This document shows, in pieces, positions 20,501-23,500 of a DNA stretch of 64,000 nt. This DNA comes from Escherichia coli. GTDB lineage: Bacteria; Pseudomonadota; Gammaproteobacteria; Enterobacterales; Enterobacteriaceae. A program made the position numbers. The stretch is taken from assembly GCF_003991155.1 (NCBI RefSeq), contig NZ_CP031293.1. The stretch is one strand, 5' to 3'. The number at the start of each line of letters is the position of its first letter. Position 1 is the first letter of the stretch.

Positions 20501-23500
20501 GTTGAACAAATAGGTCGGGGAGAAGCAGGGCGGATTGAACTCGGGGTTGTGGGAACGGCAATGTGGGGACGGATGCGCCCGGTTATGCGGCGATTCCTTA
20601 GAGAAAACCCTAACGTTGAAGTTCTGTTTCGCGAAAAGATGCCCGCGATGCAAATGGCCTTGCTGGAACGCCGCGAACTTGATGCCGGGATCTGGCGAAT
20701 GGCGACAGAACCACCGACTGGTTTTACCAGCTTACGGTTGCATGAATCGGCGTTTCTGGTGGCGATGCCTGAAGAGCATCATCTCTCATCATTTTCCACC
20801 GTCCCGCTGGAAGCGCTACGTGACGAGTATTTCGTTACAATGCCGCCCGTGTACACTGACTGGGATTTTTTGCAGCGAGTTTGCCAGCAGGTGGGATTTT
20901 CACCGGTTGTTATTCGCGAAGTTAATGAACCGCAAACGGTACTCGCCATGGTCAGTATGGGTATTGGTATCACATTGATAGCGGACAGCTACGCGCAGAT
21001 GAACTGGCCAGGTGTCATATTCCGTCCGCTCAAAGAACGCATCCCGGCAGACTTATATATTGTTTATGAAACGCAGCAGGTGACGCCCGCACTGGTTAAA
21101 CTGCTGGCGGCGTTGGCGCAGTAGATGAGAGGCACGGGAACTGCCGGACATAGTTGGTCTGATAAGCGAAGCGCATCAGGCAATTTCGCAAATTGCAGAT
21201 AGCAAAAAAGCGCCTTTAGGGCGCTTTTTTACATTGGTGGGTCGTGCAGGATTCGAACCTGCGACCAATTGATTAAAAGTCAACTGCTCTACCAACTGAG
21301 CTAACGACCCGAAGTGGTGGGTGATGACGGGATCGAACCGCCGACCCCCTCCTTGTAAGGGAGGTGCTCTCCCAGCTGAGCTAATCACCCACTTCGGTAC
21401 TTCACATTTTTACAAGAAATCTAGCTGGCGAGAAAGTGGTGGGTGATGACGGGATCGAACCGCCGACCCCCTCCTTGTAAGGGAGGTGCTCTCCCAGCTG
21501 AGCTAATCACCCACTTCTCAATTTCTTGCTACACGGCGGAGACTACATAAAGTAGTTGGTGGGTGATGACGGGATCGAACCGCCGACCCCCTCCTTGTAA
21601 GGGAGGTGCTCTCCCAGCTGAGCTAATCACCCCCGCTGTGTGGAGTCGCATTATAGGGAGAGTTCAAAATGAGTCAACGCATTTTCTAAAGAAATTGTTC
21701 GTTCGTCGTAAATTTAAGCAAGATGATCGCAAAACAGACCGTGTTGCGCAATTTGTCAACGAAAACAATAATGCGTAAGGTTGCAACCCGAACTACATTG
21801 AGGAATCAGGCGGGAGTGATAGAATATCGCCCACTCAATTTTTCCAGGATTTGCCGGTTGTCGGCATCTTTCTAAACGTAAGGCCATTTCATGAAAATCA
21901 AAACTCGCTTCGCGCCAAGCCCAACAGGCTATCTGCACGTTGGCGGCGCGCGTACTGCTCTTTACTCCTGGCTTTTTGCACGTAACCACGGCGGTGAGTT
22001 CGTGCTGCGTATTGAAGACACCGATCTTGAGCGTTCCACGCCGGAAGCTATCGAAGCCATTATGGATGGCATGAACTGGCTGAGCCTGGAGTGGGATGAA
22101 GGTCCGTACTACCAGACCAAACGTTTTGATCGCTACAACGCGGTGATCGATCAGATGCTGGAAGAGGGCACAGCTTATAAATGCTATTGCTCTAAAGAGC
22201 GCCTGGAAGCGCTGCGCGAAGAGCAAATGGCGAAAGGTGAGAAGCCGCGTTATGACGGTCGCTGCCGCCACAGCCATGAGCATCATGCTGATGATGAACC
22301 GTGCGTTGTACGTTTTGCTAACCCGCAGGAAGGTTCTGTTGTTTTTGACGATCAGATCCGTGGCCCGATTGAGTTCAGCAACCAGGAGTTGGATGATCTG
22401 ATCATTCGCCGTACCGATGGTTCCCCAACCTATAACTTCTGTGTGGTTGTTGATGACTGGGATATGGAAATCACCCATGTTATCCGTGGCGAAGACCATA
22501 TCAACAACACGCCGCGCCAGATCAACATTCTTAAAGCCCTGAAAGCGCCGGTACCGGTTTACGCGCACGTTTCTATGATCAACGGCGATGACGGTAAAAA
22601 ACTGTCCAAACGTCACGGGGCGGTCAGCGTAATGCAGTATCGTGATGATGGTTATCTGCCAGAAGCACTGCTGAACTATCTGGTGCGTCTGGGCTGGTCC
22701 CACGGCGATCAGGAAATCTTCACTCGTGAAGAGATGATTAAATACTTCACTCTGAATGCCGTCAGCAAATCTGCCAGTGCGTTCAACACCGACAAGCTGC
22801 TGTGGCTGAACCATCACTACATTAACGCGCTGCCGCCGGAGTATGTTGCTACTCACTTACAGTGGCACATTGAGCAGGAAAATATCGATACCCGTAACGG
22901 CCCGCAGCTGGCTGATCTGGTGAAACTACTGGGTGAACGCTGCAAGACGCTGAAAGAGATGGCACAGAGTTGCCGTTATTTCTACGAAGATTTTGCTGAG
23001 TTCGATGCCGACGCCGCGAAAAAACATCTGCGTCCAGTAGCGCGTCAGCCGCTGGAAGTAGTTCGTGACAAACTGGCCGCGATTACTGACTGGACCGCTG
23101 AAAACGTTCATCACGCTATTCAGGCGACGGCGGATGAGCTGGAAGTGGGTATGGGTAAAGTTGGTATGCCGCTGCGTGTCGCCGTAACCGGTGCGGGGCA
23201 GTCTCCGGCGCTGGATGTTACCGTTCACGCAATCGGTAAGACCCGCAGTATCGAGCGTATCAACAAAGCGCTGGCTTTTATTGCTGAACGCGAAAATCAG
23301 CAGTAATTAGCGCATAAAAGATAAACGGCAGGAGAGATACCCCTGCCGTTTTTTATTTATCCGGTGCGCCGTAAAACCCCGTCCTTCAGGGCGGGGATAT
23401 AAGGCGCGGTTTTCCACCTGACCAGGTGTTTGCTGTTGTTCAATGTATTGGCGGATGACGGATATTGGCGCACCTCCGCAGCTACTGGCAAAATAGCCAG

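What the first reader, a model, noticed from the sequence alone, without database searches (positions are those of the whole stretch)
21235..21632. Tandem tRNA-Val x3 plus tRNA-Lys operon with consensus-like promoter
Three identical 76-nt tRNA-Val genes are separated by 46-nt spacers (the two spacers differ slightly) and followed by tRNA-Lys 4 nt after the last Val copy. The operon is driven by a near-consensus promoter (TTGACT-16-TATAAT) and closed by a strong terminator. The identical repeats are a potential recombination substrate for copy-number change, but this is ordinary biology.
Basis: seen in the sequence. Interest (0 to 1): 0.1.

Follow-up and report, generated by a model that had tools for sequence, protein, structure and literature searches.

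The report
E. coli valU-valX-valY-lysV tRNA operon
This is the well-known E. coli operon of three identical valine tRNA genes plus one lysine tRNA gene, with its mapped promoter and terminator; it is ordinary biology, although the number of valine copies does vary between strains.

Summary
The finding is real and is already known. On the minus strand, 21632-21235 holds three identical 76-nt tRNA-Val(UAC) genes and one tRNA-Lys(UUU) gene. All four are base-for-base identical to valU, valX, valY and lysV of E. coli K-12, and they lie between xapR and gltX as in K-12.

The promoter is TTGACT-16-TATAAT (21677-21650). The terminator hairpin is at 21230-21204. From the start site mapped in K-12, the predicted transcript is 438 nt, matching the published ~438 nt.

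One detail is wrong. The spacers are 44 and 46 nt, not both 46, and they are unrelated sequences (about 50% identity).

The copy-number idea holds. About 91% of 5,426 complete E. coli genomes keep the canonical array. About 6% have two or fewer valine copies, and about 1-3% have duplicated or rearranged units. The deletions and duplications I checked were exactly 120 or 122 bp.

The three-copy layout, the promoter and the gltX neighbour are conserved across Enterobacteriaceae and Erwiniaceae.

One modest extra: conserved complementary segments bracket each valine tRNA in the precursor. They may explain the published 3'-to-5' RNase P processing order. This is a hypothesis only.

The parts
21705..21719 (-). 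A/T-rich upstream region holding a loose FIS-like motif (GCTTAAATTTACGAC, -78 to -64 from the start site). The adjacent -60..-38 stretch is 70% A+T and resembles an UP element.
   Evidence: Motif scan, loose consensus only. The block is about 80% conserved across genera. FIS control of the gltX/valU divergent promoters was published by Champagne & Lapointe 1998, seen as a reference in PMC1183518. The exact site was not verified here.
21650..21677 (-). Sigma-70 promoter of the operon: -35 TTGACT (21677-21672), 16-bp spacer, -10 TATAAT (21655-21650).
   Evidence: 11 of 12 consensus matches. The same hexamers and spacing occur in 73 of the 75 upstream sequences compared (the window plus 74 loci from other Enterobacterales). 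Mean identity to the window is 0.91.
21633..21649 (-). Discriminator GCGACTCC followed by the 9-nt 5' leader ACACAGCGG. The start site is inferred at 21641.
   Evidence: The start site was mapped 9 nt upstream of valU in K-12 (PMC4176162). The window sequence is identical to K-12 here. This segment is 100% conserved in the cross-species alignment (58 other loci plus the window).
21557..21632 (-). tRNA-Val(UAC), copy 1 (valU).
   Evidence: Identical to K-12 valU.
21513..21556 (-). Spacer 1, 44 nt. Its core CCGCCGUGU is complementary to the 5' leader. Its 3' half is complementary to the 5' half of spacer 2.
   Evidence: Present in 5,261 of 5,426 E. coli genomes.
21437..21512 (-). tRNA-Val(UAC), copy 2 (valX).
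21391..21436 (-). Spacer 2, 46 nt, unrelated in sequence to spacer 1 except the 3' GAAGT.
   Evidence: Present in 5,181 of 5,426 E. coli genomes.
21315..21390 (-). tRNA-Val(UAC), copy 3 (valY).
21311..21314 (-). 4-nt spacer CTTC between valY and lysV.
   Evidence: The same CUUC is described in PMC4176162. It was part of the search pattern used to collect the 109 loci from other Enterobacterales species, so its presence there is by construction.
21235..21310 (-). tRNA-Lys(UUU) (lysV).
   Evidence: Identical to K-12 lysV.
21204..21230 (.). Intrinsic terminator: GCGCC/GGCGC stem, 5-nt loop, with an A6 tract on one side and a T6 tract on the other. This symmetry means it could work in both directions, for the tRNA operon and for the convergent xapR gene.
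   Evidence: -19.1 kcal/mol. It forms in the minimum-free-energy fold of the full transcript. Across species 98.9% of cells in its 10-pair main helix are paired, with an AU-to-GC compensatory change in 22 sequences. Shown to act as the operon's terminator in K-12 (PMC4176162). Bidirectional use is my inference.

Best explanation
This is the chromosomal valU-valX-valY-lysV tRNA operon of Escherichia coli.

Transcription. One strong sigma-70 promoter is read divergently from gltX. It produces a 438-nt precursor that carries three identical tRNA-Val(UAC), one tRNA-Lys(UUU) and a terminator hairpin.

Processing. As shown in K-12, RNase P first cuts off the terminator. It then releases the tRNAs one at a time from the 3' end towards the 5' end. 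Exonucleases trim the 3' trailers.

Role of the copies. The three copies provide gene dosage for the major valine tRNA.

Copy-number change. The copies are perfect 76-nt repeats set 120 and 122 bp apart. Unequal recombination or replication slippage occasionally removes or adds exactly one tRNA-plus-spacer unit, so copy number varies among strains.

What is shown and what is inferred. Shown here: gene identity, synteny, promoter and terminator sequence and their conservation, and copy-number variation. Taken from the K-12 literature: start site, single transcript and RNase P pathway. Inferred: the dosage role and the recombination mechanism.
For: - tRNA calls.
- The three Val copies are identical.
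- All four genes and spacer 1 are identical to K-12, and spacer 2 differs by 1 nt.
- The RefSeq annotation tRNA-Val x3 | tRNA-Lys between xapR and gltX is found with >=80% coverage in 5,309 of 5,426 genomes.
- Start site 21641 to terminator end 21204 gives 438 nt, matching the published full-length transcript of ~438 nt.
- The promoter hexamers are conserved in 73 of 75 sequences, and the leader is 100% conserved across genera.
- The terminator shows compensatory changes.
- Val x3-Lys is the most common layout among 109 Enterobacterales loci (68 loci), and gltX is the divergent neighbour in 83.
- Deletions and duplications of exactly one unit were seen. DOC14 (a K-12 derivative) has lost 120 bp, CNREC_004-43 has lost 122 bp and ABU 83972 has two copies. 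IAI39 has four copies with spacer order [1,1,2], and CP026085 has four with [1,2,2].
- The valUXY-lysV unit can be deleted in K-12 (PMC11480407).
Against: Nothing contradicts the identification. Limits:
- Transcription and processing were not measured in this strain.
- The promoter scan alone is not enriched (2 sites against 1.6 expected in shuffles).
- The terminator scan missed the hairpin.
- The strain frequencies are approximate. They count redundant clones and rest on assemblies, and the three two-copy/one-copy queries all returned the same 324 genomes, so they did not separate the layouts.
Confidence: 0.97

Rival explanations
1. Each valine tRNA gene is its own transcription unit, with promoters inside the spacers, so the array is not a single operon.
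For: The spacers are A/T-rich and are more conserved (0.70-0.71) than the flanking DNA (0.34-0.48).
Against: No promoter-like site lies in either spacer. In K-12 a full-length ~438-nt transcript hybridises to the leader, spacer and terminator probes (PMC4176162). The spacers are only 44-46 nt long, so there is little room for a promoter plus leader.
Confidence: 0.01
2. The array is a recent, strain-specific duplication, or an assembly artefact of a repeated tRNA.
For: The copies are identical, as they would be after a recent duplication. Copy number does vary between strains.
Against: The two spacers are unrelated to each other, yet each has orthologues in other genera. Median identity to the window is 93% for spacer 1 and 87% for spacer 2. 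The three-copy layout is found in 68 of 109 loci across Enterobacteriaceae and Erwiniaceae and in about 91% of E. coli genomes. The triplication is therefore ancient, and the copies have stayed identical through selection and/or gene conversion.
Confidence: 0.01
3. The locus is mainly an integration or variable-region hotspot (a tRNA-Lys attachment site), and the repeats are leftovers of mobile-element insertion.
For: - The DNA downstream of lysV varies between strains: xapABR-yfeN in some, a FlxA-like gene in others.
- K-12-type strains carry a 153-bp RtT-like insertion flanked by a duplicated lysV 3' end plus terminator.
Against: This variation lies downstream of lysV, not inside the Val array. 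The window has no RtT match even at E<=1. The Val repeats are complete, functional-looking genes conserved across genera.
Confidence: 0.01

Closest known systems
E. coli K-12 valU-valX-valY-lysV operon (b2401-b2404)
   Same: All four tRNA genes, spacer 1, the leader, the promoter and the terminator are identical. Gene order and the gltX/xapR neighbours are the same.
   Different: - Spacer 2 differs by one base, G instead of A.
- K-12-type strains carry a 153-bp RtT-like insertion with a second copy of the lysV 3' end plus terminator downstream of lysV. The window lacks it.
[quoted passage not shown]
   Same: It encodes the same tRNA-Val(UAC) and tRNA-Lys(UUU) sequences, has very short Val-Lys spacers (CC, CUC), an identical terminator sequence and RNase P-dependent 3'-to-5' processing (PMC4176162).
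   Different: It differs in gene order and locus. It is essential in K-12, whereas valUXY-lysV can be deleted (PMC11480407). It is not in this window.
valV-valW dicistronic tRNA-Val(GAC) precursor
   Same: RNase P processes it directionally, 3' to 5'. [quoted passage not shown] This is the same logic I propose for the leader-spacer helices here.
   Different: It is a different isoacceptor and has two genes. The structures here are leader-trailer duplexes that bracket each tRNA, and they have not been tested experimentally.
tyrT-tyrV operon with RtT repeats
   Same: It has tandem identical tRNA genes, and downstream repeats that end in a copy of the tRNA 3' end. K-12-type strains have such an RtT-annotated element after lysV.
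   Different: The window has no RtT element at this locus.

Membership tests
E. coli valU-valX-valY-lysV operon (orthologous locus) | Gene content and order: Val(UAC) x3 followed by Lys(UUU) on one strand | tested here: met
E. coli valU-valX-valY-lysV operon (orthologous locus) | tRNA sequences equal to K-12 valU, valX, valY and lysV | tested here: met
   No differences in any of the four genes.
E. coli valU-valX-valY-lysV operon (orthologous locus) | Position: divergent from gltX, convergent with xapR | tested here: met
E. coli valU-valX-valY-lysV operon (orthologous locus) | One promoter and start site, one terminator, ~438-nt primary transcript | tested here: met
   The sequence from -120 to the terminator is identical to K-12. 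Start site 21641 to 21204 gives 438 nt. Transcription itself was not measured.
E. coli valU-valX-valY-lysV operon (orthologous locus) | RNase P-dependent 3'-to-5' processing with RNase P removal of the terminator | not testable with these tools
   Known only from K-12 experiments (PMC4176162).
tRNA (Rfam RF00005) | Covariance-model score above the gathering score, cloverleaf with anticodon, encoded CCA end | tested here: met
   65.9 to 79.2 bits against a gathering score of 29. ARAGORN anticodons are tac and ttt. All four genes end in CCA.
Intrinsic (Rho-independent) terminator | G+C-rich hairpin followed directly by a U tract | tested here: met
   GCGCC/GGCGC stem plus U6, -19.1 kcal/mol. Compensatory AU-to-GC change in 22 sequences.
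Growth-rate/stringently controlled stable-RNA promoter (rrn P1-like, FIS-activated) | Near-consensus hexamers with a 16-bp spacer, a G+C-rich discriminator and a start site 9 bp after the -10 element | tested here: met
   TTGACT-16-TATAAT, discriminator GCGACTCC, start site 9 nt downstream of the hexamer.
Growth-rate/stringently controlled stable-RNA promoter (rrn P1-like, FIS-activated) | UP element and FIS site(s) upstream of -40 | tested here: inconclusive
   The -60..-38 stretch is 70% A+T. Only a loose FIS-like match is centred at -71. The block is conserved. FIS control is published (reference seen), but I could not read the site positions.
Growth-rate/stringently controlled stable-RNA promoter (rrn P1-like, FIS-activated) | Response to ppGpp/DksA and to growth rate | not testable with these tools
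   Needs an experiment.
RtT-type repeat downstream of a tRNA operon (Rfam RtT) | Match to the RtT model after the last tRNA | tested here: not met
   No RtT match in the window at the gathering score or at E<=1. Present in K-12-type strains.

The most novel reading that the evidence does not exclude
The spacers may not be passive linkers. In the precursor each valine tRNA sits between complementary segments:
- The 9-nt 5' leader pairs with the conserved core of spacer 1, bracketing valU.
- The 3' half of spacer 1 pairs with the 5' half of spacer 2, bracketing valX.
- GAAG in spacer 2 pairs with the CUUC spacer, bracketing valY.

These conserved leader-trailer duplexes could hide the A/U-rich spacers from RNase E. 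They could also block RNase P at each upstream site until the downstream trailer has been trimmed. That would explain the published RNase E independence and the 3'-to-5' processing order of this operon.
Probability: 0.3. Interest if true: 0.3.

Novelty: already known. Interest (0 to 1): 0.08.

Why it matters
The locus needs no further attention as a discovery. It is a textbook tRNA operon whose promoter, transcript and processing pathway were studied in K-12.

Two small points may be useful. First, the survey quantifies how often a short tandem tRNA array gains or loses one unit within a species. About 6% of complete E. coli genomes have two or fewer valine copies, and a few percent have duplicated or rearranged units. 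Second, the conserved leader-spacer complementarity is a concrete, testable structural explanation for the directional RNase P processing reported for this operon.

Tried and rejected
- The consensus terminator scan did not report the operon's terminator. Folding showed the hairpin is real. I think the A and T tracts pair with each other, so the scan sees no free T run.
- The promoter scan gives no enrichment on its own (2 sites against 1.6 expected). The promoter call therefore rests on the 11/12 match, cross-genus conservation and the published start site.
- A permissive Rfam search (E<=1) of 21000-21950 found only the tRNAs and sub-threshold noise, such as antisense-tRNA hits to plastid UTR models, AgrB and RNAI over the terminator and the adjacent end of lysV, and YrlA over parts of the tRNA genes. 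There is no RtT and no sRNA family in the spacers.
- Three synthetic queries were meant to separate the layouts with two copies keeping spacer 2, two copies keeping spacer 1, and one copy. All three returned the same 324 genomes, because BLAST pieces are joined whenever no third Val copy intervenes. I therefore read 324 as 'two or fewer copies'. I could not list individual genomes beyond the rows shown.
- The spacer 1 x spacer 2 duplex energy is not clearly better than composition-matched shuffles: median z is -1.55, and 30% of species fall below -2. Support for that helix rests on its fixed position next to the tRNA ends and on double changes in the alignment. It is moderate only.
- The covariation score of the named structure (0.120) is barely above the -1 slid control (0.116). 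Only the percentage of paired cells separates clearly: 87.6% against 44-52%.
- The strict FIS consensus found nothing, and only a loose pattern matched.
- Zhao & Harris 2019 (PMC6379654) is not held in the library, so I used the summary in PMC10731613.
- The REP-like palindrome at 21157-21181 has no second copy in the window within 3 mismatches. Calling it REP-like rests on my memory of the consensus.

Full report
**1. Observation**

ARAGORN finds four tRNA genes on the minus strand:
- tRNA-Val(tac) at 21632-21557, 21512-21437 and 21390-21315
- tRNA-Lys(ttt) at 21310-21235

Rfam's tRNA model scores them 65.9, 65.9, 65.9 and 79.2 bits, against a gathering score of 29. The three Val genes are identical over all 76 nt, and all four genes encode their CCA ends.

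The spacers are 44 nt (21556-21513) and 46 nt (21436-21391). They align at only 24 of 49 columns and share just the final GAAGT. The Val3-Lys spacer is CTTC.

**2. Promoter and terminator**

The scan reports TTGACT-16-TATAAT, matching 11 of 12 consensus positions, at 21677-21650 on the minus strand. The scan as a whole is not enriched over shuffles (2 sites against 1.6), so this alone proves nothing.

The same scan missed the terminator. Folding shows AAAAAAGCGCC-CUAAA-GGCGCUUUUUU at 21230-21204, with -19.1 kcal/mol. The hairpin also forms in the minimum-free-energy fold of the whole precursor, which has a z-score of -6.7. Its symmetric A and T tracts make bidirectional action plausible, also serving the convergent xapR gene (20240-21124). 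That is an inference.

**3. Identity**

A megablast of 21100-21900 against 5,426 complete E. coli genomes matches 5,425 of them. In 5,309 the match covers at least 80% of the query. The features under the match are annotated tRNA-Val x3 | tRNA-Lys, with xapR on one side and gltX on the other. The window is 100% identical to strain FDAARGOS_497.

Against K-12 MG1655, all four genes are identical to valU, valX, valY and lysV. Spacer 1 is identical, and spacer 2 differs by one base. The window therefore holds the valU-valX-valY-lysV operon.

**4. How it works, from K-12 experiments**

Agrawal, Mohanty and Kushner (PMC4176162) reported the following:
- There is a full-length transcript of about 438 nt.
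- The start site lies 9 nt upstream of valU.
- RNase P removes a Rho-independent terminator, cutting just after the lysV CCA.
- RNase P then separates the tRNAs in the 3'-to-5' direction.
- RNase E plays only a minor role.

Placing that start site on the identical window sequence gives position 21641. From 21641 to the end of the U tract at 21204 is 438 nt, which matches.

The start lies 9 bp after the -10 hexamer, behind a G+C-rich discriminator (GCGACTCC). From general knowledge, this is typical of rRNA- and tRNA-type promoters under growth-rate and stringent control.

FIS regulation of the divergent gltX/valU promoters was published by Champagne & Lapointe 1998, a reference I saw in PMC1183518. 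I found only a loose FIS-like motif centred at -71, and a 70% A+T stretch at -60..-38.

The valUXY-lysV unit can be deleted in K-12, whereas the lysT operon, which carries the same tRNAs, cannot (PMC11480407).

**5. Comparative evidence**

An exact search for the Val-CTTC-Lys junction in one genome per species returned 109 loci. They come from Enterobacteriaceae and Erwiniaceae, including Citrobacter, Klebsiella, Salmonella, Kluyvera, Kosakonia, Pantoea and Erwinia.

| Layout | Loci |
|---|---|
| Val x3-Lys | 68 |
| Val x2-Lys | 10 |
| Val x1-Lys (some truncated) | 12 |
| Val x4-Lys | 2 |
| Val x5-Lys | 1 |
| Val x3, no Lys gene called | 3 |
| lysT-type | 9 |
| Unresolved | 6 |

gltX is the divergent neighbour in 83 of the 109 loci. 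TTGACT-16-TATAAT is present in 73 of the 75 upstream sequences compared, the window included.

| Segment | Mean identity to the window, 58 three-copy loci |
|---|---|
| Discriminator + leader | 1.00 |
| Core promoter | 0.91 |
| Upstream -80..-36 | 0.80 |
| tRNAs | 0.98-0.99 |
| Spacers | 0.70 / 0.71 |
| Terminator | 0.89 |
| DNA after the terminator | 0.34 |

The terminator stem shows an AU-to-GC compensatory change in 22 sequences. The two spacer types are unrelated to each other within a locus (median 53% identity). Each is nevertheless recognisable across genera: median identity to the window is 93% for spacer 1 and 87% for spacer 2 in 42 strictly parsed loci. The triplication is therefore ancient, not recent.

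**6.

Counts across the 5,426 complete E. coli genomes:

| Feature | Genomes |
|---|---|
| Spacer 1 present | 5,261 |
| Spacer 2 present | 5,181 |
| Spacer1-Val-spacer1 | 70 |
| Spacer2-Val-spacer2 | 79 |
| Match to constructs with no middle Val copy | 324 |

All 30 listed hits for the last row are annotated tRNA-Val x2. The three queries could not be told apart, so I read 324 (6.0%) as 'two or fewer copies'. I estimate that about 91% of genomes keep the canonical array.

Layouts checked directly, written as the ordered list of spacers:

| Layout | Strain(s) | Change |
|---|---|---|
| [1,2] | window, K-12 | canonical |
| [2] | DOC14 (laboratory K-12 derivative) | exactly 120 bp lost |
| [2] | ABU 83972 | two copies |
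| [1] | CNREC_004-43 | 122 bp lost |
| [1,1,2] | IAI39 | four copies |
| [1,2,2] | CP026085 | four copies |
| [2,2] | ATCC 11775, CP029371 | three copies, spacer 1 replaced |

Between species, Intestinirhabdus alba has five copies spaced 44-41-44-41. Franconibacter helveticus has the two spacer types in swapped order.

These are the products expected from unequal exchange or slippage between 76-nt perfect repeats. The Val2/Val3 repeat extends to 84 nt. The mechanism itself is inferred.

Caveats: the counts include clonal redundancy, and some differences may be assembly errors.

**7. An extra feature**

In the predicted fold of the precursor:
- The 5' leader ACACAGCGG pairs with CCGCCGUGU in spacer 1: 8 pairs, bracketing valU.
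- The 3' half of spacer 1 (GCAAGAAAUUGAGAA) pairs with the 5' half of spacer 2: 15 pairs with an internal loop, bracketing valX.
- GAAG in spacer 2 pairs with the CUUC spacer, bracketing valY.

On a 56-sequence alignment, 87.6% of cells in these helices plus the terminator form standard pairs, against 44-52% when partners are slid by 1-3 columns. The leader/spacer-1 helix is 96% paired but does not vary. Nine of the ten distal pairs of the spacer-1/spacer-2 helix show changes on both sides.

An alignment-free duplex calculation supports the leader/spacer-1 pairing (median z -3.3; 96% of species below -2). It supports spacer 1 x spacer 2 only weakly (median z -1.55).

Other points weaken the case. 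The structure was derived from the window itself. The covariation score barely exceeds one slid control. About 6% of E. coli genomes lack one spacer and are still viable.

Pairing of the 5' leader inhibits RNase P (PMC9433436 abstract; PMC10731613). Flanking stem-loops enforce the 3'-to-5' order in valVW (PMC10731613). A plausible but untested reading is that these duplexes explain the RNase E resistance and directional RNase P processing of this operon. The K-12 paper does not use the words 'stem' or 'base pair'.

**8. Verdict**

This is a known, ordinary tRNA operon, correctly read by the first stage apart from the spacers. Novelty: already known. Interest is low.

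Noticed in passing
window 21204-21256; L004 1133-1288, L005, L002, L008: K-12-type strains carry a 153-bp insertion after lysV, annotated 'RtT sRNA'. It is flanked by a direct repeat of about 49 nt made of the last 18 nt of lysV plus the whole terminator, so they have two terminator copies. The window has the simple, uninserted form and no RtT match.
   Followed up: partly
window 21633-21641 with 21531-21539; 21515-21529 with 21412-21434; 21400-21403 with 21311-21314: Complementary leader/trailer segments bracket each tRNA-Val in the precursor. They are conserved across Enterobacterales (87.6% of cells paired against 44-52% for slid controls). They may be the structural basis for the published 3'-to-5' RNase P order.
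   Followed up: partly
L007 (ATCC 11775), L119, L100 (Franconibacter helveticus), L089 (Intestinirhabdus alba): Some arrays keep three copies but have the spacers rearranged: spacer 2 twice in ATCC 11775 and L119, and swapped order in Franconibacter. One species has five copies spaced 44-41-44-41. These are footprints of successive unequal exchanges.
   Followed up: partly
L003 1080-1421, L118 1100-1168, L119 944-1168, compared with window 17837-21124: The DNA downstream of lysV varies between strains. The window and K-12 have xapA-xapB-DUF1427-xapR. Other strains have a FlxA-like gene directly after lysV, with yfeR beyond it in L003, the only locus extending that far.
   Followed up: no
L004 1491-1566 (NCTC10973 valX): The middle Val copy of NCTC10973 has G15 changed to A (CTCAACTGGG), while its two neighbours are wild type. 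This is either a real single-copy variant or a sequencing error.
   Followed up: no
L075 6666-7098 (Citrobacter amalonaticus ku-bf3): The lysV gene diverges just after the anticodon into sequence that resembles the RtT-like element (GATTCGAACCTGCAGCAGG...). ARAGORN calls no tRNA-Lys there.
   Followed up: no
L072 (contig labelled Chryseobacterium sp. 18061): This contig carries an Enterobacteriaceae-type gltX (92% identity) and the Val x3-Lys operon. Its spacers match those of L063 (Citrobacter sp. 18056), apparently from the same study. It looks like a mislabelled or contaminated assembly.
   Followed up: no
window 21157-21181: An imperfect palindrome, GCCTGATGCGCTTCGCTTATCAGAC on the minus strand, lies between the terminator and the xapR stop codon. 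From memory it resembles a REP element. There is no second copy in the window within 3 mismatches.
   Followed up: partly
window 26078-26268: A second tandem tRNA pair lies on the plus strand, in the position of K-12's alaX/alaW tRNA-Ala(GGC) pair (gene names from my own knowledge of K-12; the RefSeq rows carry no gene names): two tRNA-Ala(GGC) genes 39 nt apart, downstream of yfeC/yfeD. PMC11480407 reports that deleting alaWX causes growth defects.
   Followed up: no
window 21798-21825: A plus-strand promoter-like site, TTGAGG-16-TAGAAT with a TG extension, lies 66 bp upstream of the gltX start codon (21891). It is a candidate gltX promoter in the divergent intergenic region.
   Followed up: no
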